64,000 nucleotides of DNA from Azolla caroliniana (Eukaryota > Plantae > Polypodiophyta): positions 3,720,001 to 3,784,000 of the forward strand of contig JBHGNT010000022.1 of NCBI GenBank assembly GCA_043228905.1, given 5' to 3'. Made by a program: the position numbers and the translations under genes. The notes under the pieces were generated by a model. It ran no database searches. It saw nothing but the letters and a program-made list of their open reading frames with translations, and was not told the origin of the DNA. This document shows positions 1 to 57,416 of this stretch, piece after piece; the stretch's first letter is position 1; each line of letters starts with the position of its first letter.

Positions 1-3000
1 TTCGTACAAGACGAGGTCTCACACTCCATGATCCTCGAGCAACCCTTTATCACGGCTTCACGGATGGAGACGAAGGTGCTCGATAGCGGTGCGACTTTTG
101 CACGAATTTGGAGCCAAAACGGAGGGAAATCCGTCCAATTCCTAACGGTGCCGGAAATCATGAAAGGAACAAGAGAGAGCTCTTGTCCCAAACAAGAATG
201 GATTTTTAGAGTGGAATATTGCGGAGTGGGGAAGTGATAGTCCGAGAAGCCTTGATACCCCACACAAGAAGAAACCTCTCAGAGCAAAACAAGTACGAAT
301 CGGTCTAGATGGGGCATCCACGTACACGGTCGTAACCGGAGGAATGAAGAAAGAATACCGAAAAGTGGAGGATAAGTTACGGTCGGCATCAATAATAAAA
401 GAAGATGAAGAAATCGTGGGAATAGTTGAAGAAGTGTTCTATGGGACCACGTTACAACGGCTTGAAGAGCTCGCGGAAGATACAAGCCAGGGAAACCGGG
501 TAATTCCGGTGGAATCGGTCGAGATGTACGAGATCATTGCGAAAATGGGGCCGGATGCGCTCCGCAAAGAAGAAGCAATGGTAAGTATGAAATACAAGAC
601 CGTGGAGAAGAAGGTGAAACCAACCGCGGGACCGTTACCCGCCGATAGCGAACAAAAGAGGAAAGAAGTCTCGGGGGATCCGACACTTCGGAAGTCCATG
701 GATATTGGACATGCCTTCATGGATGACAACCGGAAGAAACTTCGGATCGGTGGTGGGTTCCTATTAAAGAATGAAGAAGAACGATTCCGTGGGATGCTAG
801 AGCGACATGGGAGAGCATTTGCATTTACATCGAAAGAAAGAGGATGCGCTGACCCGAAGATAGTGGAGTCGATGGTGATCTTCATGATTGACCATGTGTC
901 GTGGAACCTGAAGCCGATTCCGGTGCCACGGGCACATATTTTGAAAATCATCGACTTGCTCAAGGAGAAGGTGGCGATGGGGATTCTAGAGCCATCAAAT
1001 GCTCTGTACTCAAATCAATGGTTTACGGTTCCGAAGAAGAATGGGTCACTCTGATTTATCCAAGACTTGCAACCGGTGAACAAGGTCACGATCCGGAACT
1101 CCGGAGTCGGTCCGATAGTGGACGAATTTGCGGAAGCATTTGCCGGTCATGCGATATACTCTATCGGATACCTCTACTCGGGGTATGACCAATTCCAACT
1201 AGCCGTGGAGAGCCGAGACATCACTACCATGCAGACACCGATAGGATTAGTCCATATGTGTACGCTACCACAAGGCGCGACGAACTCGGTCGCACATATG
1301 ATGAATGCAATGAACAAGGTGCTTCGAGACTGCATTCCGGAGATAATGATGCCGTTCCTAGATGACATTCCGATGAAAGGATGCACGGTAGAAGAAAAAG
1401 ATGAAACTATGGATGATCGAGGATGCCGAAAGTTCGTAGTCGACCATATTCGTGATTGCGAGAAAGAGCTTCGAAAGTTAGAAGATGTGCACCTAACACT
1501 TTCCAGGGAGAAATCGGCATTCAGGCAAGAAGAAATATTGGTAGTTGGACATCTATGTGGGCCCTACGGCCAAAGACCGTCACCGACCAAGATCAATGCA
1601 GTTCAAGCTATGAAAGAAATATGTGAGTCACAATCCGAAGGTTTCTCGGAGCATGTGCATTCTACCACATAAGGATTCCACACTATGCACATATTGCAGA
1701 CCCACTCTATCACTTGTGGCGGAAGGGTAAGAAGTTTGAATGGAAACTGGAGCATACCAAAGCCGTGAAGAAGATCAAGAAATCACTACGAAGGGCAAAA
1801 GCACTAAAGAAGTCGAACTATGACCGACCGATCATAGTAACGGTTGACACAAGTCCAACCGGAATTAGATGGGTCATCAATCAAGTCGATCCGGATGGTT
1901 CGCGATATCCGATCCGATTCTGAGGAAAGGTTCTCAACGAAAGGCAACGCGGATATGTACAAGTCAAAAGAGAATTACGGGGAGTTGTGTCGGCAATCAA
2001 ATCGGATCGAGATTATTTGATGGGAGCCGAAGTACTGATCAAAACGGATTGTCTTCCGATACTCGGGATGATGCGGAGTTGCACGATACCGAATGTGGCT
2101 ATGCTAAGATGGATTGCATATGTTAAGTCGCTTAATCCGGAGGTACGGCACATCTCCAGAAAAGATAACACGGTAGCGGATATGCTATCAAGGGCACGGT
2201 TCGGAGATGACATAACCGAATCTGATAATGAAGAAGTTTCCAAAGACTACTTTGCTTCGGAGCACATATGTCGGGTGAACGTAATCCGAGAATTCCAGGA
2301 AGAAGAATACGAGGGAGAAAGCTTGTTGATCAGGAAAGTGCTACAAGAAATCGAGGAATCCTCGGATAATAAAGAGAAGAGAGCCGAGATCCGAAGTAAG
2401 AAGCGGCAAGTTCGAAAGTTCTTCTTGAAAAATGCATTAATATGGAGGGAGTCGAAAAGACTGGATGGCATACCACTTCGGGTAGTCGGGACGAAAGAGC
2501 AACGAAACCGGATAATGTTCGAATTTCACGAATCTGATTGGGCTGGACATCGAGGAACGTGGGAAACTTTTGTGAAAATCAAACAAAAATATTGGTGGAA
2601 GAACATGTACAAAGATATAGCAGAGTTCATGGAAAGCTACGAGAAGTGTCCAATCTACTCCGGAGTTCGACACCGAGATGAGTTACATCCGACATTCTCA
2701 CCGACAATCAACTTCAAATGGATGGTCGATATTGTAGCCATGCCTACTGGGATCGGACAAAAGAAGTACTTGGTGTTAGCTCGGGAAGATCTCACAAACC
2801 AAGTAGAAGGTCGAGCGCTACGAAGGAAAACGTGTTCTACAGTATGCCAATTTCTTTTGGAGGAGGTGTTTTGTAGGTACAGGTGTGTAGGACAAGTGAT
2901 TGCGGATCGGGGAGAACTTGACTCTGAAAAAGCTAAGGAATTCTTCACCAAACATGGAGTTTGGTTAACACTGATAACGACATACAATCCGGAAACCAAC

Positions 3001-4501
3001 GGGAAGATCGAACGAGGACATAGTCCGATCATCAAAGCACTTGCGAAGGCATGCGATGGAAGGGTGAAGTATTGGCCGCAGATGCTTCCGTATGCACTAT
3101 GGGCGGATTGGATGATGCATAGCTCCGTAACCGGTTACATGCCGGCAGAACTCATGACTGGGCAAGCACCGGTAATGCCAACGAAAACCGTGATCGCGAC
3201 ATGGACAATGCTACTATGGAAGGAAGAGATGAGCCGGGAAGAACTACTAGCGGTCCGGATACGACAACTAGATAGAAGACCGGAAGACATAGCGGAAGCA
3301 ATACGCCGACAACAAGAAGCGTGATTCCGCAATAAAAGCCGGTTCGACACAAAGCACCGACTACAACCGCGGAAGATTGAAGCAGGAGATTGGGTGATTG
3401 TCTACGACAGTAGTTTAGATCATCAACATACAACAATACGGAAGTTCGCGAAAAGGTGGTTCAGGCCATACGAGGTTCGGAAAGTTTTCAACAACGGAAC
3501 TTCCCGACTATGTGAGTTGGATGGAACGATGCTACGAGTGCCTATAGCCGGGAAACGGGTGAAGATTTTCAAGAAACGAACTAATGAAGAACCCTATGTG
3601 ATCCTAGACAAGACAGACAAGAAGGAGCAATTGGACGAAGATCGCGGTGATGCGGAAAGCGAAGAAAGTGGATTACAACTCATAGTCGACTTAAGGGGAG
3701 AATTGGAGGAAGCTTCGGATGAAGGTGAATAGCAAGCATCGGGGACTTCGACACATACCGAAGGATGTGCGGGTTCGGAGGGGGCGAGTGTCGTAGTGTG
3801 AATCACACACTACGTGAAATATGTAAAATACGTATAATAAATAAAATAAAATATTAAAATTATTTATTACGTGCATAGGGCAGGATTCAAACCTTGTACC
3901 TCCACATAGACAAACCCCAACCTTACCATTGTACTAAATTATCCTAAGTGTTTTAAATATAGATTTAATACGTATAAGACCTTTATTTACGCCTACCTTT
4001 ATTAAAAGGAAAGTCATGCATTTTTTAGAATGTGTGAATACTTTATTTATAAGAAAAATGTACACCAATAAAAAAAACAGACTTGTGCACATCTAGCGAG
4101 CATGAGCACTATATTTAGGAAATAAAAGCATAATGTAAAAAGGCAACTCATGCACATTTAATGTGCATGAACACTTTAGAAAAAGCATGAAGCTATGCTT
4201 AGCCTCTTCCATCCTTATATAAGGAGGAAAGAAAGATGTATGGGGGTTGTTGCTTATTTTACAAGGGTGGATTAATATAATATAATCGTGGGATTCACGA
4301 ATTCGCTAACTATTTTTTTCTCTCTTAACCTAAGTACTCACTAATACACTATACTCGTGGGATTCACGAGTTTTTCATATCTTTCTTTCTTACAACATAT
4401 TTGATATTCTTCATTGCCTTAGAATTTCCTTTTCTCCTAGTCCAAAACCTCAGTGGTTCCCGCCCGGCTCACGCAACGATCCGGAGCCGAAACGCACGAC
4501 A
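1..4501 (+). mobile_element. Ty3/Gypsy LTR retrotransposon G1 (5' part outside window), degenerate PR-RT-RH-INT plus 3' LTR
   Basis: ORFs 344-1054, 1067-1672 (LPQGATNS, FLDD), RNase H 1714-2200, integrase 1987-3324 (HRG..C, DRGE, YNPETNGKIER), 3394-3732; purine-rich PPT ending 3788; LTR 3789-4501 with TGTCGT...ACGACA ends; right flank ACGT inside Copia C1. Confidence 0.93.
3789..4501 (+). repeat. 3' LTR of G1 (713 bp)
   Basis: Follows PPT GGAGGGGGCGAG, inverted termini TGTCGT/ACGACA, TATA-like CTTATATAAGG at about 4214; Copia coding sequence resumes at 4502. Confidence 0.85.
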
Positions 4502-6334
4502 ACGTCTCATAGGTGGCCTTGATTGGAAGGAGGTCCGGTTTTGCTTACCAAATAGGCAGTCGGTGCACCTCTCAAGATGCACGTTCTTCACCGAAATGAG
4601 GTTGTCATCGGCAAGCCTCTTCATCCCCTTCACGCTCATATAACACAGTCTCTTGTGCCACAACTCACCGGCAGTGTCGGAAGCCACGTTCACTTCTTCT
4701 GGGCATAACCGGGCATTCATCAAGTACAACGTGGTGACCTTCCGGGCCCGAGCCACTATCAAGCTCCCTTTGCTGAATTTCATGACTCCGTTCCGAATGT
4801 TACCCGTGTAGCCTTCATCATCTAGCCGATCGGCTGATATCAGGTTCAGTCGAACCTCCGGAACATGTCAGACATCCTTGAGCAGTAGCTTGCATCCGGC
4901 TGGTGTTGTCAACCACACGTCTCCTATGCCGACAATTCGGCATGTACCTTCATTCCCCATCCGGACAGAGCTGTGATCATCGGCTATGTAGGATGAGAAG
5001 TATTTCTGATCTGGGGTAAGGTGGAACGATGCTCCAGAATCGACAACCCACGTTGTCTCGTCGCCAGCAAGGTTCAACTCACTCTCCTCAGTGATGAGCA
5101 TCAACTCTTCTTCACTTGTCACGATTGTCGTCGTTCCCTTCCAGCCCGACTTCACTCTTGCTAGGGATAACTGTTTCCCTTCCAGCCCGACGTTGCCCAA
5201 GGTGACAACCAACGTCTCCCAACTATTTGGGAGGGAACCGAGTAGGAGTAGTGCTAGTACCTCAGCGGCGAGAGGTACTTCCAATGATGTTGCCTGGTGG
5301 ATCAACCCCTGTAAGGTATTCATGTGCTCCGCTATACTGGAGCCATCTTGGTACCAGAGTCTTACTAGCTTCCGAAATACCGAAACCTGATTAACAACAT
5401 TTTTTTTCTGAAACATAATGCCGATCTTCTCCCAGAGCTCATGAGCCTTGCTTTGTTCATTGAAGTTGTGGTATAAACTCATGTCGATGAAGCACCGTAT
5501 GTACGCCGTTGTCTTCATGTGCATCACCTCCCATATCGTGGCATCGATTTTTTCCGGTCTCTTGTCCTTGAACTCAACCAACAGCCAAAGATCTTTAACC
5601 ATGAGCATGTCCCTCATCTTCGACTTCTACCCTGAGTAGTTGGAGCCGGTGAGCTTGAACATGCCTCCCAACGAATCTTCCATTTTCCTGTGTCATTTTG
5701 CTCTGATACTAGTTTGACAGGAAATATGCGGAATAATCTCCGGCCACAACTGAAGCGTAGATCACTTGATGACAATCAAACACAGAAGAAATGGGAATGG
5801 AGGTAAGTACACAAACAGAAAGAGAATACAGAGGATGTTAACATGGAAAACCCCCCGAGAGGGAAAAACCGCGGGAGCCCATAGACTCCAAACTATCACT
5901 ATGCCAAGGAGTACAACAGGGAGCACAGAGGCAACGACCTCCTGCTGACGATCTTCGCCTAGCGGCGGTTACAACAGAGACATGCTCTGTATCGCTCTCT
6001 CTCTCTCTCTCTCTGTGTACAGTCGTTACACCAATTACACTATACAAAGATAATAACAACAACTATCAGAATAAAAAGACTATTTGCCCTAGGTCACATT
6101 TATACTAATATGACATTAGGACTATTTACAGATATAGCCCCAATGGGCTCTCAGAAACATATCTACATATATGTCCCTTCATCCGGCGAGAGGTTCTCAT
6201 CGGGTCTTCCTTGCCGGGTACTCGTCATCCGGTTCTCACCGGGTCTTCCTTGCCAGGTACTCGTCCTCCAATTGTCACCGGGTGTTCTGATGCCGGGCCT
6301 TCGTATCCCATCCGGAGGGACCGAGATCCTAACA
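4502..6334 (-). mobile_element. Ty1/Copia element C1, 5' part (LTR, PBS, gag, PR, pre-integrase), interrupted by G1
   Basis: LTR 5715-6334 (TG..CA); tRNA-Met PBS GCTCTGATACTA 5700-5711; gag ATG at 5683; WVVDSGASFH protease and LWHKRL..C..C motifs; same family as elements at 51369 and 54165. Confidence 0.92.
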
Positions 6335-9300
6335 CATTGATGATCGTCCCATTGTTTCAAGAAATATCATAGAAGAGTCAGAGCCCGTTAATATTGTCCT
6401 AGATAATTTAGTATGTGTAGTATCCTTTAATATAATTATTATCCCAGAACATCCCATCGTTTTGGGATTACCATGGTTCGAATTACATAACCCAAACATA
6501 GATTGGAGAACAAGAGAAATCCGGTATCGACAAACCCAAAGATCTACTCATAAGATTGCAACCATTTCGCTACATCAGTTGCCTGAGGAAGGACGCAAGG
6601 AAGAAATGTTTCTGTTGAGAGTCGAACTCAACTTCCCATAGAAATAGGTTTCACACTGGCTCATGGACATACCATTCTAGTTTTGTAAATAGTAGATAGG
6701 TCCCTTGCCCTAGTTTAGTTGGTATTTCCACCAACCTTTTCTAACCTGGTTAACAATTGGAGGTACTATACAGTTTTCTTATTAAGAGCTCTCTCTTTCT
6801 CTCTCTTTGTTTTGTTGTACACACACACACACACACTCAATCATCTTCCGCTACATTACACCACCAACTCCATTTCTTTACATTATATCAAAGCGTGTGG
6901 TTGCTTAATCGAATCTATTCAACTGTGTTGTGGTACACGCCTACGATCAACAGAACCGGTTTATTAACAGAGAAGAAATCAGTATGAATACTCAAATGGG
7001 AAGCGCTCTTCCTACGGAGAAGCTCGACAGGACAAATTTCACATATTGGGAGTACAAGATGCATTAGTACCTTGTCGGACAAGGATACTAGAGTTATATT
7101 GAAGGAGCTCATGAAACGCAACCCAACCCGACACACGCCGACTACCCAGCGTGGGAGCATGCGTACATGATCACATGCTTGGCTATATTTGAGAGGCGAA
7201 AACGCCAAAAGAAGCATGGGGCAATCTCAAGAAGATCTTCGCGACCAATACGGTTGCCCGCAAACCCCAGCTTCGTCAGTAGTTAAATGGCATTCAACAA
7301 AGGGACATGTCAATCAGCAGCTACGCCTTGAAGATCAAGGAGCTGTCTGATGCACTCGGGTCGATCAATGTTGGCATTGATGATGAAGAAATGGTGTAGA
7401 TATGCCTCGGAGGCTTGGCACCTCGATTTAGCACAATAAGGTCCACCGTCCTCGCAAGAGAGAATCCTCCCACCTTTTTCGATCTCCAGTCAATGTTGTT
7501 GGTCAAGGAAAATCATGCTCGACAAAGGAGCAACACACTAGAGGGTCAGATGCTCTACTCCCAGCCGGATGATAGAAGAAATTTCGTCCGTGGAGATAGA
7601 GATCGATTCGGACACGGCCATCACAGTCGGCGGATCCAAGAGTGTAACTCCCACCAATGGTAAGTGGACAAGAACAACTCTAGAGAGTTCGGTAGAAGGG
7701 GGAGTCATCAAGCCGGACCAAGCAATCACAATAACCCAATCGAATGCGTATATTGGGGAAAACTCAGACACTACGAAGAGGAGTGCTGAAAGAAGAAGCG
7801 AGACTCCACTTCGACCGGTCGAATGTTCACGAATTACGCATTGAATTCCGACTACGACAAACGTAGCGGAATGTTCATGAATTCCGCATCGAGTTCCGAC
7901 TAAGACGATCGTAGCGGAATGTTCATGATGCGGCACAAAGCGCACTCAATGGCAACTCAAGGTGAAACAAGCACCACACCCTTAGAGAATGTATGGTTTG
8001 TTGACTCGGGAGCATCCAACCAGATGATGTGTCATAAAGATTGGTTTCGGGAATTACGAAAACCCAAACGTCCCGGATATGTCAAGACACACGATGACAT
8101 GACCCATCCAATACAGCATGTCGAGAACGTCCCATTTGGAAACAACGGCAAACAAACCTACCTCAAGAACGTACTACATGTTTCTACAATCAAGAAAAAC
8201 TTGGTCTCGATCAGCCAAATTGTTGAATAAAGAATGCAAGTACAATTCAATAATGATGGGTGCTTTCTCGAAAGAGGCGATTGAGTCGTAGCTCACGGAC
8301 GTCGTGAAGGCCGTATGTTTGTCCTCGAATCGAAGGAGGTAAAATTGGCCATGTTTGCAAAGGGCCTCAAAGTCGAAACCAACCTAAACTTTTGGCACAA
8401 GAGAATTGGTCACATCAATCTCCAAAAACTTCAAAACATGCAATCGAGAAGAGTCATACTCGGACTCCCGAACTTTACCGTGCAGGAGATTATGGGCATA
8501 TGCGAAGCGTGCTAGTTCAAAAAGCAACACCGACATCCAATCCCGAAAGAGTGGAATGTGAGCAAAGGGATCCCGGATGTCGTACACTCAGATGTATGGG
8601 GACCGGTCCAGACAAGCACACTCGGCAGATTTACATTACGTTTATCGACGACTTCTCTAGGAACACTTGGATCTACCCGATGAAACAAAAGGACAAAGTG
8701 TTCAAATACCTCCAGAGATTCAAAGCCAAAGTCGAAAAAGCTACGGATCGGCATGTACGCTGCCTTCGATCAGATAGAGGTAAAGAATATTTTTCGGATG
8801 AATTTATGGCGTATCTCCAAAAGGAAGGAATCCGACGAGAATTTTCCTGCCGTCACACACCTCAGCAGAATCGCATAGCTGAGCGTAAAAACTGGCACAT
8901 AGTAGAAGTCGCTCGGGCTATGATGCATGAGAAGAATCTGCCGAAATCATACTGGGTAGAAGCGGCAAACACGGTCTTATACCTCATGAATAGTTACACA
9001 ACCTCGGGAGTACACGACATAACTCCTCATGAGAAGTTTTTTTGAAACAAGCCGGACTTATCACATGTCCGCATTTTCTGCGCAATCGCTTACGTACATA
9101 TTCCCGACGACACGTTGTCGTGTTGTTACGTGCATGCGTGGAGAACGAGGCAGGACCACCGGGGCCTCGGACCGAGAAATAACCAAATGAGGGGAGGGGA
9201 AGGAAACTAACGGCGTAATTCACACGCGCACAGACCCACAGAATCACAGGAATTGCAACTAGCTATAGAACGCGAGATGGAGACAGAACGAATGTTTATG

Positions 9301-9736
9301 CAAATATAAATCAAGGTGTTACAACCGGCAAGCCGACGAGTGATGGGCTCCGACGCCTGCGCACACACACACCCACATATACAGAACGCGAGATGGAGGC
9401 TCTGCTGGGAGCACTCGGGCGTCCCGCGGAGCAGAGTCAACCTCTCGAAACCTGCACAAAACGATTATGGAGACGACAGAGGAGAGGAGAAGCGCTCGGT
9501 TCCACTCCGGCAGCATTTCTTCCTCCACAAATGCGATATATTTTTTCAATACCTCTCCCTCTCTGTTATAGCCCAAGGAGGGAGGCCGTTACCACCCGTT
9601 ACATCATGTTTATTCCCTGTCCTTTCAGACAGGGATATGCCTTGATTTTCTCCCTACTGAATGCGTGCTACTTAGGATTTCACCTTAGCCGACTTATACC
9701 TATCTACGTACTATACAACAAAACTTGTGCCCACGT

Positions 9737-9933
9737 TATCGCGTTGTTACGCGCGTGTGTGGGGAACGAGGCGGGACCACCGTGGTCTTGGACCGAGAAA
9801 TAGCTGAGAAGGAGGAGAGCGGAAAGGCAACGGACACACTTGCACACGCACAGACATGGGAGCACACAGGGATCACAGTCCAACAACACAACAAACGAGA
9901 CGACTAGAAGTCTGAGTATATGAACACATATGC

Positions 9934-9965
<32 letters not shown>

Positions 9966-12900
9966 CGAGACGGTTACAACTAATAGGCCGGCAAGGCGAA
10001 CACCGACGGTTGTTCACTCACACACACAGAAGAGCGAGATAGAGACTTTGCCGGAAGCACACGAGCGTTCCACGGAGCAAAGTCAACCTCCCGAAAACCT
10101 GCGCAAAAATGGCTATGGAGAGTGGCAAAGGAGAAGGGCTCGGTCCTAGTTCGGCAACACTTCGTCCTCTCTATCGCGCGATCCCTTTCCCCATTCCTCT
10201 CCCTTTCTTTTATAGCCCAAGGAGGGAGGTCGTTATCATCCATTACATCACATTAATTCTCTGTCCTTTCGAACAGAGATACACCTCGATTCTCTCCCTA
10301 CTGAATGCGTGGTACCTAGGATTTCACCTCAGCCGACTTGGACCTACCTACTTACCATACAACGAAAAGTGTGCTCATGTGGAAGGGCCGGTTTACACAC
10401 GCTAAACTCGGTTTCCGCCGAGGGGCGGTTTTCTTCACGGCATCCGCCCCCACCTAACCACGCATCCACCGGTAGGTACCAAAATTGGGCTCTTGCTTTA
10501 CTCCTCGTCTTCCGGATCGTCATCCGCCTCGGACCGCCTGTCGTCACCGTCCATGCTTTCTAGATCCGGCTCGCACTCGTGTCGTTTCTTAAATGCTTTG
10601 AACCTCTTCCCCGCTACCGGTATTGCCATCCTCGTACCGTCGAGCTCCGCAAGATGGTAGGTCCTATTGTCGTTGGCACCTATCACCACGTAAGGCCCGA
10701 ACCACCTCCTTGCAAACTTTCGCGTTGCCCTGTGCTGGTTGTTGAGGTTGCTGTCATACACTAGGACCCAGTCGCCTTCCTCGATTTTCTTCGGTCGCAG
10801 TTGGTGACTCCGGTCAAACCGCCCTTTGTTCTTCAACCTTGCCAACCGAAGCTTCTCCACGGCTCTTTCCACGTCCTCCGGCCTTCGCTCAAGTTGTCGA
10901 ATCCGTGCCGCTAGCAGCTCCTCCCAGCTCATCTCATCTATCCAGTCGACCGTGGCCCATGAGGAGATGGTTCACTCTGTTGGCATGATCGGCCTCTATC
11001 CATACATAAGCTCTGCCGACATGAACCCGGTTACCAAACTGTGCGTAGTTCGGTCCGCCCACAAGGCATAAGGTAGCAGTTGCGGCCAGTTCCCGACTTG
11101 GCCTTCACATGCCCGTACTAGCGCTTTGACGATCGGCCCGTGTCTGCGCTCCACCTTCCCGTTAGCCTCCGGATTGTACGTTGTGGTGAGCGAGAGTTTG
11201 ACACCTAGTCGGTGAAACAACTCTTCAGCCTCTTGCACGTCCAACTCTCCACGGTCAGCCACGATCTTTCCTATGCTCCCGTACCCACATATCACGTCCT
11301 CGATTAGAAATCGGCACACAGCCACAGTCGTTTTTTTCTGCAGCGCTCGGCCTTCAACCTGGTTCATCAAATCCTCCCGAGCCAGCACCAGATACCGCAT
11401 CTGTCCTACCCCCATCGGCATCGTCACCAAATCCACCATCCATTTGAAGTGGACGGTCAGACGGTAGGTCGGGTAAAGCTCGTCCTAGTGTCGGACTATG
11501 GAATGCATCTGACAGCTTTCGCAAGTCGTCACGAACCGATGCACGTCCCGGTACAGTCCCGGCCACCAGTACTTCCCCTTTAGCTTCTCGAACGTGGCCC
11601 ACGTTCCGCGGTGTCCGGCCCAGGGACACTCGTGGTAGGCCTCCAACAACTCCTCTTGTTCCTCCTTCTTCGCCACCACTCGGAGCGAGATGTCGTCCCT
11701 CTTCTTCGGGTGCTTCCATATGTACCCGTCCCGAAGGAAGAATCGGTACGCTTTCTTCCGGATCCGGTTGGTCTCTTCCTTTGTCCACGCCGCATCCGGT
11801 GTCATTGTTTTCAGGAGCCCGCCGATCTGGAGCCACTCCCGGTCATACTTGCTCTCATCGAATTCGTTAAGCGCCGGAGTGCTCCCCTATCTGGTCGTCA
11901 CGTATGCCGCCTCGAAGAAATCTACGCCGACTTCCTCGTCCTTCGAAACCATGCCGTCCTTGTTTTCGAACCTCGCCCTTGAGAGCATTGTCTTTTCCGG
12001 AAATCTGTCGTATCTCCGGATTCAGGGACTTGATGTACGTTATCCATCTGAGCATTGCCAGGTCCGGCGTCGCGCATCCGGAAACCATGCCAAGAATCAG
12101 CAGGCAGTCCGTCTCGATTATTACCTCTGTCCCGATCAGGTAGTCTTTATCGGCCTTCACTACCGAAACGATACCCCAAAGTTCGCGTTTAACCTGGGCG
12201 TATCCTCGCTGTCGCTCACTGAGGACCTTCGCGCCGAACCGGATGGGGAACCTCGTGCCAACGTCATCCTCTTGGTTGATCAACCGCCCGATCCCGGTCA
12301 GCCTCGTGTCCACCGTCATGTAGATGGGGACACCCTTGCCGTAAGCCACTTTACGGAGAGTTGGTGCTACCATAAACGCCTCCTCTAGTCTCCAGACCGA
12401 CTCTGTGTGCTCCGTCCTCCACTCGAGCCTACACCCTTTCTTCAACAACCCGTAGAGCGGCTCCGCAACATGCGCGTAGTGCGGAATCCAGATGTGGTAG
12501 AACGCGCACGCCCCCAAGAATCTGCGGACCTCCGTAACAGACCCGCATTCGTCCTTCATCACGGAGATGGCTTCTACCTTTGCTGGAGACGGTTTCCTAC
12601 CGTAAGGCCCGCACAGGTGTCCGACCACCAAGATCTCTGACTGCCCGAATGCCGATTTTTCTCCGGAGAAGGTGAGTTGTGCGCTCTCGAGCCTCTGCAA
12701 CACCTTCTCGCAGTCGTTGATGTGGTTCACGACGAACCTCCGGCATCCGTCCGGCCCGACAGTCTCGTCCACATCTTCCACTGGACACCCCTTTATCAGG
12801 ATGTCATCCAAGAATGGCATGGTGATGTCCAGGATGCAGTCCCTCAACACTTTGTTCATTGCGTTCACCATATGCGCCACCGAGTTCGTGCCACCTTGTG

Positions 12901-15900
12901 GTAGGGTACACATCCGTACTAGGCCGAGAGGGGTTCGCATCGTCGTGATATCCCTGCTCTCCATGGCTAGCTGGAACTGGTCATACCCCGAGTATAAGTC
13001 ACCGACCAAATAGATCGACCTCCCAGCGCAGGCCTCCGCGAACTCGTCTATGGTCGGTCTGATTCTTGCATTACGGATGGTCACCCTGTTGACCGGTTTC
13101 AGGTCCTGAATGAAGCTCAGGGTGCCGTTCTTCTTCGGCACTGTAAACCACCGATTCGAATACGGGGCACTCGACGGTTCAAGGATGCCCATCTCCACCT
13201 TTTGCTTCAAAAGCTCCATCAACTTCGGGATGTGAGCTCTCGGCACCGGAATCGGTTTGAGATTCCACGGTACATGCGGTACTATGAAGATCACCATCGG
13301 TTCGACGATCATCGGGTCCACGCACCTGATCTCCTCTGGCGAGAACGCGAAGGCTTTCCCATGCCTTTCGAGCATTCTCCGAAACCTGTTCTCCTCCGCC
13401 GGTAGTAGAAAGCCACCCCCATCGACCTTGAGCTCCCGTAGCGTTATGTCGGTGAACCGGTGCCCTATGCCAGCCGGATTCTGTAAACTTGGGTCCGACG
13501 CGACCCCTTTTATCCGCTCCTTGCTGCCCTCCGGCAAGGGTGCCGCGACCGGCCTCACCTTCCGGTCCACAGTCTTCTACTTTGTACCCACGCGGGCCAT
13601 CCGATCCGACCCGATCCTTTCCCCGAAGTCCGCGATGACTTCGTACATTCCCATCGAACCTACCGGAACGTTCTGGTCTTCTCTAAGGTTTTCACCAATC
13701 ACCTTTCACAACTCGCCCAAGGTGTCGTCAAAAGAGACCGCCTCCACGGCGCCGCTGATCTCTTCGTCGGGGGAGAGGACTCTGCATCCCCTAAGCCACT
13801 CCTCCATTGTCAGAGAACCAAAATTTCCAACCTATGGTATAAGTCTTCTTCCCTACTATACATTTGTGGGGGTTTTCCGGGGTGTCCGGACTATCACGGC
13901 CCCACGCCTTGATACCCCTCTCTAAAAATCCCCTCGAGTTTCGCCACGGAGGGTCTCGTGATTATGCTCATGGTTTGGTTGCACCGTCAGGAACTGGACC
14001 GAGTGACGCCCATCCTAGCTCTTGACTCTTGCATAGGCCGAACCGTTGTCCAACACCTTGGTCTCCATCCGTGCCGCCGTGATGTACGGTTCTCCTAGTA
14101 TAACCGGATGTGAGGACGTCTCTTGCACAAAGAAGTGCTGGTCAATCTCGACATCGCCAATTTTCACCCGTACGTTCGGGCAGGCTCCATGTAGTTCTTC
14201 TGTGGTGCGCGTCACTGCCTGTATTTGCAACTGTGTTTGGTGTTGATCGGCCATTTCCCCTTTTTGTCAAAGTCCATGGACATCAAGTTGATTTCTGAAC
14301 CGTGGTCCACCAACGCCACCACCGGTTCCTGGACATCCCCAACCTTAATAGGGGTCTCCGTGGTCGCTCTGGCCCAGTGCGGCCTCGAATAGTGGCTCTC
14401 CGCCAGCTTGTCTTCTAACGCCATGTCCTCTATGTGCGTCGTTCGCACTTCAACCGGCTTCTCCGGCTCCGGCTCTGTCGAGAGCCTCTTCCTCTTCACC
14501 AAGTCTACGATGGAGTCGTGGAACTCCTTCTTGGCGATCCCGACCACTTCCCTCAACGACAGCTCCACTTTGTTGTCAAGGATACGTTCGTCCAGGACCT
14601 TTCGCAGGTCCGTGGTCCTTTCGATTTCCGTGCTCAACCGGTACCCGGCCTTCTTGGCTTTATCCGATGCGCCGGTCGCACTGGCCTCATTCTGCCTTTG
14701 ACCGAATCGAGTCTCGTACCGTTGCGAGGGCCCGGCCCCTCCGGTTTTACCTACTCGCTTGTCTTCCACCAGAGCCTCTTAGTTCTAGCATGCACCTTCA
14801 ACCAAGCCCGTCTTCTCTTCGACCGGGTCACTCCACCCGGTTACCTCCCGGACCCGTTTTTCCGCGCGGTTCGCTTCTTCTTTCCTTAGCCGTGTGCCGG
14901 CGAGGCCTTCCAGCATTAGCAGCCAGAATCCGGCTTCTTTCGTCTTCCGGGCCTCACCACCTCTGACCCGGATCCCAGTCGACGCCGAGTAGTGGACAGT
15001 CTCGGCGTGGCGAGACACCGCTTCTTCCATCAGTCGTTTCATACCCCCTCGTCCGACATTTCGGTCTAGGGCCCTTCGGGTCTCGCTAGCGTGCACCTGA
15101 CCATTCCATAGGTACACCACATTGGCTCTCATTGCCTCGGCGAAGTCTCCGCAGTCCTTCCAGACGTGGCCAACCGCGTTGCACCACGAACACTAGTTTC
15201 CAGCCAGAGGCCTTCGGTCACGGGCCTGTTCGCCGTTGTCCCTCCGTGCCTGTGCAATATGCAGGTCCTCTAGGGCTGCTCCTCCGGACGAACCTTTGAC
15301 CATGCCGGTCGAAGTTGATCCGGTCTTGAGCCAGTCTCGGGTCTCTTCCCTTCGCACTGGTGGGGTTGGCTCGAGTTTCCTTGCTGCTACAGAGCCTGCC
15401 CCTGTTGATCCTTTATCGACCCACTCTCACCGTTTGTCGAAACGGCCACTGACCCTCTTCACCATGGCCCAGTCAGCCGTCAGCCCGTCATCAGTCTCCA
15501 GCAGGAGACCCACTTGCTCCCGGTCTCTCGCATTCACCGACTTAACGAACACCAGGACGCGACTTGTGTCTAGTACGGTCTGGTCGAGCGCCGAAACACG
15601 CGCGAAGCGTTCTTCAAACTCCCGGAGGAGCAGTGACGCATTTCTCCCCTTTTCGGGGGTCTCTACCCATTTCATGAAGTCCCATTTCATGAAGTCCCAT
15701 TTCGAGTCTAGCTGAAGCGCGTCATCAAGCCCGTATTTTTCGAGGAGCTGACCTTCAAACTCGTCCTAGGTCCGGCTCTTAAAGCGTACCTCGAGCACCT
15801 CCGCATGGATGCCCGACATCGCCACCCGAGGGATTCCGGTTAGTCGCCTTTCTTCCGGAATGTCTCTCATTACCATCTAGGCCCGGTAGGCCTCCAAATA

Positions 15901-16268
15901 GCTCGTTGCATCCTTCCCACCGAACCGGCCTATCGTGCCGACGAACGATTCAATAGCCCTATCGAGGGCGCCTGCGACTTCGCGCGCACTCACTATCCAA
16001 TCCAGAGCCGAAGCCATGGCTTCCGCAAGATCCGATCCCCTCATCTTCGTATTCCTCTACCGCCTATTCACGTCGGGTTCACCAAATATATCGCGTTGTT
16101 ACACGCGTGCGTGGGGAACGAGGCGGGACCACCGGGGTCTTGGACCGAGAAATAGATGAGACACACTTGCACATGCACAGACACGGGAGCACACAGGGAT
16201 CACAGTCCAACAACATAGCAAACGAGACGACTAGAAGTCCGAGTATATGAACACGTATGCATATAAAT

Positions 16269-16300
<32 letters not shown>

Positions 16301-16778
16301 CGAGACAGTTACAACTAACAGGTCGGCAAGGTGAACACCGACGCTTGTTCATGCACACACACAGAAGAGCGAGATGGAGACTCTGCCGGAAGCACACGGG
16401 CGTTCCACGGAGCAGAGTCAGCCTCCCGAAAACCTGCGCAAAAATGGCTATGGAGAGTGGCAGAGGAGAAGGGCTCGGTCCCAATCCGGCAGCACTTCGT
16501 CCTCTCTAATGCGTGATCCCTTTCCCCATTCCTCTCCCTTTCTTTTATAGCCCAAGGAGGGAGGCCGTTATCATCCGTTACATCAGCATTAATTCTCTGT
16601 CCTTTCGGACAGAGATACACCTCGATTCTCTCCCTATTGAATGCGTGCTACCTAAGATTTCACCTCAGCCGACTTGTACCTACCTACTTACCATACAACG
16701 AAAAGTGTGCTCGCGTGTAAGGGCCAGTTTACACACGCTAAACTCGGTTTCCGCTGAGGGACGGTTTTCTTCACGACA
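9737..16778 (-). mobile_element. Ty3/Gypsy element G3 (tRNA-Trp family), full length but degenerate, nested in G2 LTR
   Basis: LTRs 9737-10442 and 16089-16778; TSD ACGT at 9733-9736 and 16779-16782; PBS ATTCACGTCGGGTTCACCA 16066-16084; gag, PR (VDHGSEIN), RT-RH ORF 11867-13570, INT 10498-11805. Confidence 0.95.
16066..16084 (-). promoter_or_regulatory. Primer binding site complementary to tRNA-Trp 3' end
   Basis: Plus strand ATTCACGTCGGGTTCACCA matches the recalled 3' end of plant cytosolic tRNA-Trp(CCA) plus CCA; repeated at 21353-21370 and 59702-59719. Confidence 0.85.
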
Positions 16779-19700
16779 ACGTGTAAGGGCCGGTTTACGC
16801 ACGTTATACGCGGTTTCCGCCTAGGGACGGTTTTCTCCACGACATCCTCCCTCACCTAACCGCGCATCCACCGGTATGCGCCAAAATTAGACTCTTGCCG
16901 GAGAAGACCGGCCCACGCTCACCCTTCGTCCTCCGTATCGGCATCCGCTCCGTGCCGGTTGTTGTCACCATCCAGGTTGTCTGGGTCCGGTTCAGCCTCG
17001 TGCCGCTTTTTGAATGTTTTGATCCTCTTCCCCGCCACCAGAACCGACATCCTTGTCCCGTCGAGCTCCGCGAGATGGTAGGTCCCATTGTCGTTGGCGC
17101 TTGCCACCACATAAGGCCCGAACCACCTTCTTGCAAACTTCCACATTGCCCTGTGCTGGTTGTCGAGGTTGTTGTCGTACACTAGCACCCAATCGCCTTC
17201 CTCGATCTTCTTTGGTCTTAGTCGGTGAGTCCGGTCGAACTGTCGTTTGTTCTTTACCCTTTCCCTCTGCAGCTTCTCCGCGACTCGGTCCACGTCCTCC
17301 GGTCTTCGCTCCAGCTGCCAAATCCATGCCGCTAACAACTCCTCCTAGCTCATCTTGTCTTTCCAGTCCACAGTGGCCCATGAGGTGATTGTCTGCTCCA
17401 TTGGCATGATCGGCTTCTGCCCGTACATTAGCTCTATCGGCATGAACCCGATTACCGAACTGTGCGTAGTTCGGTCCGCCCACAACGCGTAGGGTAAGAG
17501 CCGCGGCCAGTTCCCGACTTGGCCTCCACACGCCCGTACTAACGCTTTGACGATCAGCCCGTGTCCGCGCTCCACCTTCCCATTAGCCTCCGGATTGTAT
17601 GCCGTGGCATACCACTTCTTCGATCAGAAATCGGCACACGACCGCGGTCGTTTTGTTCTGCAATGCTCAGGCTTCCACCTGGTTCGTCAGGTCCTCCTGA
17701 GCCAACACCAGATACCACATCTACCCTACCCCCATCGGCATCGTCACCATATCCACCATCCACTTGAAGTGGATGGTCGGAGGGTAGGTCGGGTGAAGCT
17801 CGTCCCGATATCGGACTATGGAGTGCACCTGACAGCTTTCACAAGTCGTCACGAACTGATGCACGTCCCGGTATAGTCCTGGCCACCAATACTTCCCCTT
17901 TAGCTTCTGGAATGTGGCCCACATCCCCCGGTGTCCGGCCCAGGGACTCTCGTGGTACGCCGTCAGCAATTCTTCTGGATCCTCTTTCTTCGCCAACACT
18001 TAGAGCGGGATGTCATTTCTCTTCTTCGGGTGCTTCCATATGCTCCCGTCCCGTAGGAAGAATCGGTACGCTTTCTTCCGAATCCGGTTGGCCTCTTCCT
18101 TCGTCCACGCCGCGTCCGGTGTCATTGTCTTCAGGAACCCGCCGATCTGGAGCCACTCCCCGTCGTACTTGCTCTTGTCAAATTCGTTAAGCGTCGAAGT
18201 GCTCCCCTTTCTTGTTGTTACGTTAGTTGACCCGAAGAAGTCCTCGCCGACTTCTTCATTATCCGAAACTATGTCGTCCTCGTCGCTGAACCTCCCACTT
18301 GAAAGCATATCGGCCATGGCGTTATCCTTTCCGGAGATGTGCCGTATCTCCGGGTTTAGGTACTTGATGTACGCGATCCACCTGAGCATCGCCAGGTCCG
18401 GAGTCGCACATCCGGAAACCATACCCAGAATTGGTAGGCAGTCCGTCTCGATGATCACTTCCATCCCGATCAGATAGTCCTTATCGGCCATAACTGCCGA
18501 AACGATACCCCATAGCTCACGCTTGATTTGGGCGTGTCCTCGCTTCCGCTCCCTCAATACCTTTGACCCGAACCGGATCGGGAACCATACGCCATCTTCG
18601 TGTTCCTGATTGATCACCCACCCGATCCCGGTCGGGCTCGTGTCCACTGTCACATAAATGGGGACTTCCTTACCGTAAACCACTTTCCGGATAGCCGGTG
18701 CCGCGGCGAGTGCCTCCTTCAGTCTCTGGATCGACTCCGTGTGCTCGTCTCTCCACTCGAATTTACGCCCTTTCTTCAGCAATCCGTAAAGCGGTTCCAC
18801 GACATGCGCGTAGTGCGGAATCGAGATGTGATAGAACGCACATGCCCCAAGGATCCTTCGCACCTCGGTGACTGACCCGCAATCATCTTTCATCGCGGAG
18901 ATGGCTTATACCTTTGTTGGGGACGGCTTTCGGCCGAAAGGCCTGCACAGGTGTCCGACTACAAGGATCTCCGGCTGTCCGAAGGCTGATTTTTCTCCTG
19001 AGAAGGTGAGCCGCGTGCTCTCGAGTCTTTGTAACACCTTCTCGCAGTCGCGGATGTGATCCGTCACGAACCTCCGGCAACCTTCGAGCCTGATCGACTT
19101 GTTCTTGTCCTCCACCAGACTCCCTTTGATCGGGATGTCGTCCAGAAATGGCATGGTGATGTCCGGGATGCAGTCCTTCAACACCTTGTTCATCGCATTC
19201 ACCATGTGCGCCACCGAGTTCGTTCCTCCTTGCGGCAGGGTACACATCCGAACTAGGCCGAGAGGAGACCGCATCGTTGTGACATCCCTGCTCTCTACAG
19301 CTAGTTGGCACTGATTGTACCCTTAGTACAGGTCCCCGACCAAGTAAATCGACCTCCCTATGAAGGCCTCCGTGAACTCATCGATTGTCGGTCTAATACC
19401 TGCGTTTCGAATGGTCACCTTGTTGACCGGTTGCAAGTCCTGTATGAAGCGCAATGTGCCGTTCTTCTTTGGCACGGTAAACCACCGAATCAAATATGGG
19501 GCACTCCATGGTTCGAGGATGCCCATCTCCACCTTCTGTTTCAGCAGCTCCATCAGCTTCGGGATGTGATCTCTGGGTACCAGAATCAGTTTGAGATTCC
19601 ACGACACATGTGGTACCGTGAAGATCACCATTGGTCCCACAACTTTCGGGTCTACGCACCCTATCTCCTCTGGTGAGAATGCAAAAGCCTTCCCGTGCCT

Positions 19701-22700
19701 CCCGAGCATTCTCCGAAACCGGTCCTCTTCCACCGGCAGTAGAAAACCACCCCCACTAATCTTGAGCTCTCATAGTGTTATGTCGGTGAACATGTGTCCC
19801 ATGCTGGCCGGATCTCGTAAACTTGGGTCCGACGCGACCCCCTTTATCCGTAACTCACTGTCCTCCAACAAGGATGCCACGACTGGCCTCACCTTCCGGT
19901 CCATAGTCTTGTACTTCGTATCCACTCGGGCTGTCCGATCCGACTCGAGTCCACTACCGAAGTTGGCGATGACTTCGTACATCTTTTCCGAACATACCGG
20001 AATCGTCCGGTCCTCATTAAGGCCTTCTAAGAACACCTCCCGTAACTTCCCCAAGGTGTCGTCGAAAGAGACTACCTCCACGGCTCCGTTGATTTCCTCT
20101 TTAGGGTTGAGGACCCCCCATGCCCGAATCCGCTATTCCACTCGGTCTACCTCTTCCTTCTTCAACCGTACTCCGGGGAGACCCTCTAGCACCAATGGCC
20201 AAAATCCGGAGTCCTTCATTTTCTAGGCCTCATCACCCCCGACCTGGATTCTCGCCGACACCGAGTAGTTAACGGCCTCTGTATGTCGTGTCGCGGCCTC
20301 TTCCATCAACCGCTTCATTCCGCTGCGCCCCGAATTCAACTCTAGGGCTTTCCGGATCTCGCTCGTGTGCACCCGCCGATTCCAAAGGTAAACCACGTTG
20401 GTGCTGAGTGCCTCTGCGAAATCTGCACATTCTTTCCATATGTGGCCGACCGTGTCACACCACATGCACCACTGCCCCGCCAGCGGCCTTCGATCACGAG
20501 ACTGTTCGCCGTTGTCCCTCCGGGCCTGTGTGATTTGGAGATCTCACACCATCTACGACAGCTCTTCTAGAGCCGCGCCTCCGGAGGGACCTTTGACCAC
20601 TCCGCTCGGGGCTGAGCCCGCCTCAAGCCAACTCCGAGTTTCTTCCTTCCTAGCCAGTACCGACACCGGCTCCTCGAGCTCCCTTGCCGGGACAGGTCTT
20701 GCTGCCGACGAGCCCTCGTCGTTCCACTCGCACCGCTAGTCGAAACGACCGCAGACCCTCCTTACCATGGCCTAGTCTACCGTGAGCCCTTTGTCTGTTT
20801 CCAACAGGAGACCCACCTTCTCCCGGTCCATGGCGTCCACCGCCTTGACGAACAGTAGTACCCGACTTGTGTCGAGCACGGTCTAGTCCAGTGTTGACAG
20901 CTGTGCGAACCGTTTCTCGAACTCCTGGAGTAGCGCCAATGCGTTTCTACCCTTCCCTAGGCTCTCAACCCACGCCATGAAGTCTCGCTTCGACAGTCCT
21001 AGCGATTCATCGAACCCATACATCTCGAGGAGCTGCAGCTCAAACTCCTCCCAAGTCTGGCATTCGGCCAGCACCTCGAGCACCTCTGTGTGGATGCTCG
21101 GCGTCACTACCCAAGGGAATCCGGACAACCGCCTGTCCACCAAGATATCCTTAATGATCATTTCAGCCCAGTAGGCCTCCAAGTAGCTCATGGCATTCTT
21201 CCCACCGAATCGACCTATAGTGCCAACGATCGACTCAATGGCCCTGTCGAGGGCGCCTGTACCTTCACGCGCACTCACTATCCGATCCACAGCCGAAGCC
21301 ATGCCTTCCGCAAGATCCGACCCTCTCATCTTTCTATTCCTCTACTGCCTATTTCACGTCAGGTTCACCAAAAATATGTCGCGTTGTTACGCGCGTGCGT
21401 GGAGAACGAGGCGGGACCACCGGGGCCTCGGACCAAGAAATAACCAAATGATGGGAGGGGAAGGAAACTAACGATGTAATTCACACACGCACAAAACCAC
21501 AGAATCACAGGAATTGCAACTAGCTACAGAACGTGAGATGGAGACAGAACGAATGTTTATGCATATATAAATCAAGGTGTTACAACCGGCAAGCCGGCGA
21601 GTGATGGGCTCCGACGCCTGCACGTGCACACACACACACAGACAGAACGCGAGCCAGGAGCACTCGGGTGTCCCGCGGAGCAAAGTCAACCTCCCGAAAC
21701 CTGCACAGAACGATTATGGAGACAACAAAGGAGAGGAGAAGTGCTCGGTTCCACTCCAGCAGCACTTCGTCCTCCACAAACGCGATATATTTTTTCAATA
21801 CCTCTCCCTCTCTTTTATAGCCCAAGGAGGGAGGCCGTTACCACCCATTACATCATGTTTATTCCCTGTCCTTTCGGACAGGGATACGCCTTGATTTTCT
21901 CCCTACTGAATGCGTGCTACTTAGGATTTCACTTCAGCCGACTTGTACCTATCTACGTACTATACAACAAAACTTGTGCCCACGTGTAAGGGCCGGTTTA
22001 CGCACGTTATACGCGGTTTCCCCCTAGGGACGGTTTTCTCCACGACAACGCGACAAAAGCTCAACCCGAAGTCAGAGAAATGTATCCTCGTGGGGTGCTC
22101 ACTCGAACAGAAGGGGTACAAATGCTACAATCCATCTACCCGAAAAGTTTGAACCAGTCGAGATGTCGTTTTTGACGAGTCCGCATACTGGTACGCACCA
22201 AAGACAACTTTGACTACGACTCCGATATACGCCGAAATTGAGGCAAAAGCCGAAGATCATGTTACGCGCATGTTCGACGAAAGCCCAATTATGACACAAC
22301 TGAGTGGACCGTCATAGCCACCGAGTGATCAAAGCACATCTCGGCCGAGTCCAAAGCTGGACAAAGGGAAGGGGAAAATGCGGGAATACAAAGACCAGTT
22401 CGAATTCGAATCGACTCACTCCCTTGGTATAGTGAGTTCGAAGGCCTTGACATCCAGACAAATAGCATGAAGAAAGCTTTAGAATATGTGAACGAAAAGC
22501 TACGCCGGTCCACCCGAGAGAAGAACCCCGTAAACCGTTATGGCTACAATGAGTACATGGCATATCATTACGCCTTTATGATGAAGGTAGCGACAGTACG
22601 GGAGCCGGAAACGTTTTCTGAAGCCGCAAAGGAGCCCAGATGGGTTGATGCGATGAATGAGGAAATGGAAACATTATGCAAAAACGAGACCGGGGATCTC

Positions 22701-30977: not shown

Positions 30978-31296
30978 CACCTCCTCAAGACCACCACATA
31001 TCCCTAGAATCGGCCAAGTAATGGCTAATTAAAGAGGAAAGTGGCATAGGTAAGTGACATATACCTCGTCAAGGCCACATCATCCCTTAGAATCGGCCAA
31101 TTGATGGCTTATTAAAAAGGAAAGTGGCATATGTAAGCTACATATACCTTGTCAAGGCCACAACATCCCATAGAATCGGCCAATTGATGGCTTAATAGAG
31201 AGTAGAGTGGCATATGTAGGCAACATACACCTCGTCAAGGCCACATCATCCCTTAGAATCGGCCAAGTGATGGCTCAATAGAGAGGAAGAGTGGTA
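30978..31296. repeat. About 4 x 83-bp tandem repeat in G4 5' UTR, followed by a ~120-bp duplication (about 31305-31490)
   Basis: Unit ACCTCGTCAAGGCCACATCATCCCTTAGAATCGGCCAATTGATGGCT... starts near 30978, 31062, 31145, 31228. Confidence 0.9.
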
Positions 31297-44541: not shown

Positions 44542-44567
44542 TCTAGGCTCAACCCCTAGTAGGATCG
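44542..44567 (+). pseudogene. tRNA-Arg 3' half remnant
   Basis: TCTAGGCTCAACCCCTAGTAGGATCG aligns with 45722-45747 and shares its downstream flank. Confidence 0.7.
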
Positions 44568-56907: not shown

Positions 56908-57416
56908 GCCGGTTCCTTTTTGCTTGCCGACCGGTTACGGTTTGCTTGCCGGTTCCAGTTCTGGTTTTGCTTGCCGGCCCGTTCCAGTTTGCTTGCCGGC
57001 TTGTTTCCGGTTTGCTTGCCGATTCCGATTCCGGTTTTGCTTGCCGGCCGGTTCCGGTTTTGCTTACCAGCCGATTTCCGGTTTGCATACCCGTTCCGGT
57101 TCCGGTTTGCTTGCCGACCGGTTCCGGTTTTGCATACCGGTCGGTTTCCGAATTGCTTACCAGCCGGTTTCCGGATTTGCTTATCGGACCCATTTTCTGG
57201 ATTTGCTTACCGGCCGGTTCCAGTTTTGCTTACCAGCCGATTTCCGGTTTGCATACCCGTTCCGATTCCGGTTTGCTTGCCGACCGGTTCCGGTTTTGCA
57301 TACCGGTCAGTTTCCGGATTGCATACCAGCCGGTTTCCGGATTTGCTTACCGGCCCATTTCCGGATTTGCTTATCGGACCCATTTTCCGAATTTGCTTAC
57401 CGGCTGGTTTCCAGTT
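56908..57416. repeat. About 21-24-bp CCGG-rich minisatellite (TTTGCTTRCCGG..TTCCGG) in N2 LTR; shorter array at about 60396-60745
   Basis: Directly visible tandem units; source of the repetitive ORFs in the track. Confidence 0.92.

What the first reader, a model, noticed from the sequence alone, without database searches (positions are those of the whole stretch)
9112..22051. Gypsy family with 4-bp, CpG-centred target sites and tRNA-Trp priming
All four insertions sit on NCGN: G2 ACGT/ACGC, G3 ACGT/ACGT, N2 CCGG/CCGG, and the G1 right flank ACGT. Other elements here have ordinary 5-bp TSDs (CACCG, AGAAA). All four landed in other retroelements although no chromodomain is visible on the integrase. 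Inference: integrase preference for (possibly methylated) CpG could steer the family into silenced DNA. The family may match a described non-chromovirus lineage; I cannot confirm that.
Basis: partly seen in the sequence, partly recalled or inferred. Interest (0 to 1): 0.7.

Follow-up and report, generated by a model that had tools for sequence, protein, structure and literature searches.

The report
Phygy-type retrotransposons inserting at CG sites
These plant jumping genes insert at four-letter sites with CG in the middle, a habit already published for the moss Phygy group to which they likely belong, and nothing tested here shows that they sense DNA methylation.

Summary
G2 (ACGT/ACGC), G3 (ACGT/ACGT) and N2 (CCGG/CCGG) have 4-bp duplications, and G1's one visible flank is ACGT. 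The preference is family-wide: 18 of 23 curated LTR ends in related contigs have a central CG, and contigs from three sequencing runs agree. It is not new. Neumann et al. 2019 list Phygy (Physcomitrella; 186 elements) as 4-bp TSD 100%, NCGN, tRNA-Trp 81%, no extra domain. No Phygy reference sequence could be aligned, so membership rests on matching features (about 0.85). Steering into silenced DNA is unsupported: at least 74% of the non-family CpGs here already lie in retroelements, so 4 of 4 nested has p of about 0.3, and a chromovirus control is nested too. What this adds is the same habit in a lineage with liverwort and fern relatives, and a conserved, likely -1 frameshift signal between protease and RT, where Neumann lists the Phygy layout as undetermined. 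An earlier scan note on other DNA of this genome also named Phygy.

The parts
1..4501 (+). G1: Ty3/gypsy element of the same clade, cut by the window edge; broken pol 164-3729, PPT about 3771-3788, 3' LTR 3789-4501
200..240 (+). G1 candidate -1 frameshift signal (heptamer GGATTTT at 200-206, stop 207-209, degenerate stem)
4502..4505 (.). G1 right flank ACGT, in a minus-strand Copia (about 4502-5626); a paralogous Copia has ACGT at the empty site
9112..9115 (.). G2 TSD, left copy ACGT (likely ACGC originally)
9116..22047 (-). G2: 5,886 bp without G3; 5' LTR 21377-22047, PBS 21353-21370, 3' LTR 9116-9736 plus 16783-16845, PPT about 16846-16860; lacks about 1 kb spanning protease and the frameshift site; inserted in a plus-strand Copia integrase region (about 7949-9115 and 22048-23777)
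9733..9736 (.). G3 TSD, left copy ACGT, inside G2's 3' LTR
9737..16778 (-). G3: 7,042 bp; 5' LTR 16089-16778, PBS 16067-16084, broken gag-protease about 16022-13922, RT-RH ORF 11867-13573, integrase pieces 10501-11886, PPT about 10443-10458, 3' LTR 9737-10442
13888..13931 (-). G3 candidate -1 frameshift signal between protease and RT: heptamer GGATTTT 13931-13925, stop 13924-13922, 8-bp stem 13918-13888 with a G-rich loop
16779..16782 (.). G3 TSD, right copy ACGT
22048..22051 (.). G2 TSD, right copy ACGC
56233..61062 (-). N2: non-autonomous relative, 4,822 bp (56237-61058) between CCGG copies; 5' LTR 59724-61058, PBS 59702-59719, gag-like ORF 58566-59702 (37-40% identical to family gag), no pol detected, PPT, 3' LTR 56237-57730; inserted in a Copia gag

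Best explanation
G1, G2, G3 and the non-autonomous N2 are broken Ty3/gypsy LTR retrotransposons that sit at 4-bp target sites with a central CG, and they likely belong to the Phygy lineage or its sister, whose integrase likely picks NCGN by DNA sequence and bendability rather than by methylation. Shown: TSD length and motif, 18-nt PBS, PPT, domain order, no chromodomain or extra RNase H detected, one RT clade with liverwort and fern proteins. Inferred: a host tRNA-Trp primes the first strand. Ribosomes make gag-protease, and a minority slip -1 at G GAU UUU before a stem or pseudoknot to add RT-RH-INT. The integrase cuts 4 bp apart and unstacks the central pyrimidine-purine step, as foamy-virus integrase does, with added base readout that narrows the choice to CG. 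N2 borrows the enzymes. Nesting follows from where CpGs are and from which insertions survive.
For: Window TSDs and empty-site tests. Related contigs: 18 of 27 raw rows have a central CG. After dropping 4 LTR-internal repeats and correcting one 5-base register slip the count is 18 of 23; background CG is 0.045, p about 1e-16 at 0.075. Of the 5 misses, 3 are TG/CA (ATGT, CTGC, ACAG), the products of CpG deamination, and ACTT has ACGC at a homologous empty site. Sequencing-run contigs leaving the LTR end break from the stretch after ACG in 17 (X1), 13 (X5) and 10 (X11) cases; no row is listed for a break after A alone, and one row of 4 after AC (37 rows not shown). In all 4 runs the flank consensus of 44-48 contigs before the LTR ends in ACGT at about 0.4 overall agreement. 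PBS 18-mer identical in 37 of 42 hits in related loci. No chromodomain or aRH Pfam hit in 12 of 12 relatives scanned. Phygy record: 4 bp 100%, NCGN, tRNA-Trp 81%, no extra domain. Best solved integrase match is foamy-virus integrase, E 2e-21, which makes a 4-bp cut and prefers a central YR step (PMC4005685).
Against: No P. patens Phygy sequence could be compared: REXdb files were too large to read and no named Physcomitrium hit appeared among the 240 proteins listed. G3 is 7,042 bp, below the Phygy range of 7,656-9,968. tRNA-Trp identity is recalled, not tool-confirmed. Two flanks (ACTT, CCTT) are neither CG nor simple deamination products. Metagenome contigs are collapsed assemblies that give one-sided flanks, and several loci are near-copies. 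Bendability alone does not explain why CG and not TA, CA or TG; the readout residues are unknown. No data here separate methylated from unmethylated targets.
Confidence: 0.8

Rival explanations
1. The integrase, or a host partner, prefers methylated CpG, so new copies are steered into silenced, TE-rich DNA without a chromodomain.
For: All four copies are nested in retroelements. This DNA bears a methylation signature: 90 of 101 LTR-pair transitions are in CG/CHG context, which make up about 35-43% of cytosines. Phygy domains were reported enriched in predicted centromeres of the liverwort Apopellia (PMC12885004), and Phygy-in-Tcn1 pairs were the commonest repeated nests in P. patens (PMC6911290). 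A 1992 paper on CpG methylation and retroviral integration in vitro is cited in PMC5408687 (title only seen).
Against: 1,238 of 1,666 non-family CpGs in the window (74%) lie in recognisable retroelements, so 4 of 4 has p about 0.30. The chromovirus control is nested as well. The methylation signature dates from after insertion. CGCG targets occur in Drosophila errantiviruses. No methyl-reader Pfam domain was hit in 12 relatives, and the tail after the last conserved integrase motif is short (median 38 aa, 1 of 82 over 70 aa).
Confidence: 0.12
2. A distinct non-seed-plant lineage, not Phygy, that shares the 4-bp NCGN target and tRNA-Trp PBS by deeper ancestry or convergence.
For: No direct sequence link to P. 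patens Phygy was obtained. TatI also has 4-bp TSDs and tRNA-Trp. G3 is slightly short of the Phygy range.
Against: Neumann et al. name Phygy as the only plant group with the NCGN preference. TatI has aRH in 100% of members, and it is not detected here. A cloned P. patens small RNA with a perfect P. patens genomic match is letter-identical to N2's PBS region. A relative with both LTR ends in its contig spans 7,859 bp, inside the Phygy range (L015).
Confidence: 0.12
3. The CG pattern is a small-sample or composition artefact.
For: Only three full TSD pairs in the window; the region is GC-rich (CG frequency up to 0.075).
Against: Independent flanks from metagenome contigs and sequencing runs repeat it; the two 5-bp controls have no central CG.
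Confidence: 0.01

Closest known systems
Phygy, non-chromovirus Ty3/gypsy clade of Physcomitrella patens (Neumann et al. 2019, PMC6317226; abstract, passages, part of Results, section 15, supplements MOESM2 and MOESM5 read)
   Same: 4-bp TSD, NCGN preference, PBS type (tRNA-Trp, by recall for this window), no chromodomain, aRH or extra ORF, coding region filling nearly all of the internal part
   Different: Described there as specific to P. patens, while named relatives here are from Riccia, Calypogeia and Adiantum; G3 is 7.0 kb against 7.7-10.0 kb; the ORF layout, 'not determined' there, resolves here as gag-protease and RT-RH-INT in overlapping -1 frames; sequence-level membership untested
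TatI (Selaginella; PMC6317226 supplement MOESM5)
   Same: 4-bp TSD (100%), tRNA-Trp PBS (75%)
   Different: TatI carries aRH (100%); none detected here; no NCGN preference listed
Selgy (Selaginella; same source)
   Same: Short non-chromovirus, 4-bp TSD (96%)
   Different: tRNA-Ala PBS, 4.4-6.7 kb, overlap between gag and protease rather than after protease, no NCGN preference listed
Drosophila errantiviruses (gypsy, ZAM, Idefix subgroups; PMC5408687, passages)
   Same: Sequence-specific palindromic 4-base targets, one of them CGCG
   Different: Insect elements with env or derived from such; a different clade; works-like comparison only
Prototype foamy virus integrase (PDB 3oym; PMC4005685, passages)
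   Same: Best solved integrase match; 4-bp cut with a preference for a central flexible YR step
   Different: Retrovirus with a looser preference; the position aligned with Ala188 is Glu or Asp in 36 of 37 relatives matched
Fungal Ylt1-like non-chromoviral Gypsy elements (PMC2864245, passages)
   Same: Chromodomain-less Gypsy lineage; a fungal (Acaulospora) protein lies just outside the plant clade at 42% RT identity
   Different: No Ylt1 sequence was compared, so the link is a lead only

Membership tests
Phygy | 4-bp TSD | tested here: met
   3 of 3 elements with both ends in the window; empty-site and frame tests
Phygy | NCGN target preference | tested here: met
   4 of 4 in the window; 18 of 23 curated (18 of 27 raw) related LTR ends; run contigs
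Phygy | PBS complementary to tRNA-Trp | tested here: inconclusive
   18-nt PBS present in G2, G3, N2 and conserved in 37 of 42 related hits; tRNA identity recalled; no tRNA gene with this end found
Phygy | No chromodomain, aRH or extra ORF | tested here: met
   No such Pfam hit in window pieces or 12 of 12 relatives; INT stop about 60 bp from the 3' LTR
Phygy | Length 7.7-10.0 kb with coding region filling the internal part | tested here: inconclusive
   G3 7,042 bp; relative L015 7,859 bp; ORFs run from PBS to PPT
Phygy | RT/RH/INT cluster with P. patens Phygy in REXdb | not testable with these tools
   REXdb FASTA and element table too large to read; RLG2 sequence cell cut at 400 letters; no named P. 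patens hit
TatI | aRH domain | tested here: not met
   No RVT_3/aRH hit
Selgy | gag overlapping protease-RT-RH-INT; 4.4-6.7 kb | tested here: not met
   Protease motif lies in ORF1 and the overlap follows it; intact length about 7-8 kb
Chromovirus | Chromodomain on integrase; RT in the chromovirus clade | tested here: not met
   No chromodomain; 28% RT identity to the window's chromovirus, separate 100/100 branch

The most novel reading that the evidence does not exclude
A chromodomain-less retrotransposon lineage spread across non-seed plants reads methylated CpG at the centre of its 4-bp target, using the host's silencing mark itself to find safe landing sites, and rations RT and integrase by a -1 frameshift placed after the protease.
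Probability: 0.1. Interest if true: 0.7.

Novelty: new member of a known kind. Interest (0 to 1): 0.27.

Why it matters
The headline features were published in 2019 for Phygy, so the finding mainly extends a known trait. The modest gains are two. A clade called specific to one moss appears to have many relatives, including liverwort and fern proteins, and the unnamed relatives keep the same target motif and primer site. Intact relatives also show an ORF layout that Neumann et al. left undetermined. A plant integrase with a strict CG-centred target would be a usable system for asking how integrases read sequence and whether 5-methylcytosine matters; only a positive answer on methylation would be surprising.

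Tried and rejected
No whole genome is held, so no genome-wide TSD logo was possible; run contigs and 80 metagenome loci served instead. Viral contigs held no relative. No RNA holder was listed; this says nothing about expression. The tRNA behind the PBS could not be confirmed by tool: the window's tRNA-like genes are called Arg and His, 0 of 31 viral loci with the motif were tRNA genes, the prokaryote genome scan was empty, phage hits were chance, and paper listings gave no tRNA-Trp link. Phygy reference sequences were not obtained; cluster look-ups gave no organism names; the protein atlas gave no result. The looser terminus scans included coding and LTR-internal false hits and were replaced; two ACGT flanks they found (L002, L035) are not in the 23. 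A longer CACGTG target was considered: C precedes the site in all four run consensuses, but the matching G after it is not seen, so it is not claimed. A 5-bp TSD was rejected. Host identity: the neighbouring DUF1635 gene gave only weak named hits to Adiantum, so the host is not established. Gao et al. 2003 and Maertens et al. 2010 were not held. No paper search was run on the frameshift, so I do not claim it is unpublished. Searches for 'Phygy' (18 papers) and 'Phygy' plus 'fern' (3 papers) listed no study of its targeting by title; I read passages of five of the 18.
Full report
Anatomy. The window is TE-dense plant DNA. Self-alignment, ORFs and Pfam resolve 9112-22051 as two nested minus-strand Ty3/gypsy elements. 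G2 (9116-22047) sits in a Copia integrase region. G3 (9737-16778, 7,042 bp) sits inside G2's 3' LTR, about 60 bp from its inner end. G1 (1-4501, plus strand, cut by the window edge) is a more distant relative. N2 (56237-61058) has the same LTR tips, PBS and PPT and a gag-like ORF 37-40% identical to family gag, with no pol detected. All are broken. LTR divergence is 0.068 for G2 and G3 and 0.028 for N2.

The observation. TSDs are ACGT/ACGC (G2), ACGT/ACGT (G3) and CCGG/CCGG (N2), and G1's visible flank is ACGT. The 4-bp length is not an alignment choice. G2's sister LTR shows the empty G3 site with one ACGT, and removing 4 bases, not 0, 5 or 6, restores the host Copia frame at G2 and at N2. 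In run X5, 27 host-type contigs join the stretch exactly at 22048, so ACGC was likely the original G2 site. The controls have 5-bp TSDs, CACCG and AGAAA. Four of four central CGs has p = 5e-6 to 3e-5, or 3e-4 allowing any dinucleotide.

Family-wide test. No genome was held, so I used two outside sources. Contigs of public runs laid on G2's LTR show, in all 4 runs, 44-48 diverse flanks whose consensus ends in ACGT just before the LTR. At the other end, contigs break from the stretch after ACG in 17, 13 and 10 cases in three runs. No listed row breaks after A alone and one row of 4 breaks after AC. Another 11, 4 and 7 break at the LTR end itself; these mix PPT-side contigs with flanks not starting in A. 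37 rows were not shown. In 80 metagenome loci, LTR ends anchored on PPT- or PBS-marked copies gave 27 flank rows, 18 with a central CG. Dropping 4 LTR-internal repeats (L027 534, L041 7143, L042 5735, L067 1508) and correcting one register slip (L037) gives 18 of 23 against a background of 0.045. The misses are ATGT, CTGC, ACAG, ACTT and CCTT; three are CpG deamination products, and ACTT has ACGC at a homologous empty site. These are one-sided flanks from collapsed assemblies.

What it is. An RT tree of 45 rows puts G1, G2 and G3 in a 100/100 clade of 36 rows with Riccia, Calypogeia and Adiantum proteins. A fungal protein lies outside it, and the window's chromovirus is far away at 28% identity (midpoint root, no Phygy reference in it). 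No chromodomain or aRH was hit in 12 of 12 relatives. The PBS 18-mer is identical in 37 of 42 hits. I recall it as the complement of the plant tRNA-Trp 3' end but could not confirm that by tool. Neumann et al. 2019 state that Phygy is the exception among plant LTR retrotransposons in preferring NCGN (passage). Their supplement gives 186 elements, 4 bp 100% (NCGN), tRNA-Trp 81%, 7,656-9,968 bp, no extra domain, layout not determined. The finding therefore matches a published description. Membership by sequence could not be tested, because the REXdb files (MOESM1, MOESM3) were too large to read, and they bear directly on this claim. I put it at about 0.85 on features. The host is not established: relatives point to a non-seed plant, and earlier scan notes say fern, which my one test supports only weakly.

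How it likely works. Priming at the PBS and PPT is ordinary (inferred from structure). The best solved integrase match is foamy-virus integrase, which cuts 4 bp apart and prefers a central flexible YR step (PMC4005685, passages); CG is such a step. Restriction to CG implies added base readout (inference). One lead: the position aligned with foamy Ala188 is Glu or Asp in 36 of the 37 proteins my pattern matched among 120, where that paper reports small residues in retroviruses. That residue contacts bases outside the TSD, so it is not a shown cause.

Steering into silenced DNA. This is not supported. Outside the family, 1,238 of 1,666 CpGs in the window lie in recognisable retroelements, a conservative count, so four nested insertions have p about 0.30. 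The chromovirus control also landed in a Gypsy. The region does look methylated (90 of 101 LTR transitions in CG/CHG), but that records events after insertion. Drosophila errantiviruses include a CGCG-targeting subgroup (PMC5408687, passages), in a host I recall as nearly free of CpG methylation. For the idea: Phygy domains were reported enriched in predicted centromeres of Apopellia (PMC12885004, passages), and Phygy-in-Tcn1 nests recur in P. patens (PMC6911290, passages). It stays possible at about 0.1.

An addition. Intact relatives carry two ORFs: about 720 aa with a zinc knuckle and a protease motif (8 of 9 checked by pattern; Pfam support weak, E 0.13-0.16 in 2 of 6), and about 1,150 aa of RT-RH-INT in the -1 frame. 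In 49 of 57 junctions (many near-copies) GGATTTT or GGATTTC lies directly before the ORF1 stop. Six bases on, an 8-bp stem follows, with two-sided changes in 6 of 8 pairs across 25 sequences. A 12-pair version beat 500 of 500 shuffles and all slid controls, though its inner four pairs are weak. A G-rich loop has a downstream CCC in 48 of 52 cases, with no chance control, which hints at a pseudoknot. G3 and G1 keep the heptamer; G2 has lost the region. This is a likely -1 frameshift after the protease, untested. I ran no literature search on it.

Other papers opened. PMC7466625 (passages, one supplement part), PMC2864245, PMC1838911, PMC9033089, PMC13469084 and PMC12877858 (passages); only PMC1838911 and PMC2864245 bear on claims here.

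Verdict. New member of a known kind; interest 0.27.

Noticed in passing
window 13888-13931 (-), 200-240 (+); L001-L077: Conserved candidate -1 frameshift (GGATTTT, 6-nt spacer, covarying 8-bp stem, possible pseudoknot) between protease and RT, not between gag and protease; 49 of 57 junctions. L049 and L052 have a different junction with the next ORF in the +1 frame.
   Followed up: partly
window 59699-59718: N2's PBS region is letter-identical to the 20-nt P. patens cloned small RNA '1-39' (PMC1838911 Table 1; ppt-miR894 by my recall). It may be a tRNA 3' fragment or a Phygy PBS rather than a microRNA, and could pair with these elements.
   Followed up: partly
window 34726-37749: LTR element with AGAAA TSD that has no purine tract beside the left LTR; a tRNA-end-like stretch lies at about 35184-35202 instead (tRNA-Arg by recall and earlier scan notes).
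   Followed up: no
window 25067-32207: Young chromovirus: LTRs 99.4% identical, chromodomain on the integrase, CACCG TSD, inserted in another Gypsy.
   Followed up: partly
window 44542-46108: Diverged direct repeats (85%) with three tRNA-like sequences at 44831, 45675 and 46003; possibly a tRNA-derived repeat.
   Followed up: no
window 39866-41290 (+): Apparent host gene, 475-aa ORF with DUF1635; weak named hits to Adiantum only.
   Followed up: partly
window 9733-9737; L045 1003; L014 565; table 5c: The family often lands in its own kind: G3 in G2's LTR, L045 in another member's LTR, an LTR in family pol (L014), and run contigs joining an LTR end to a GCGT site in family gag.
   Followed up: partly
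L007 integrase; P0121-P0240: Acidic residue (Glu or Asp in 36 of 37 matched) at the position aligned with foamy-virus integrase Ala188, where PMC4005685 reports that acidic substitutions abolish strand transfer in RSV.
   Followed up: partly
window 9737-9738 and 16089-16090: Both G3 LTRs carry TA instead of TG at the same tip, so G3 may have inserted with a non-canonical end or mutated twice.
   Followed up: no
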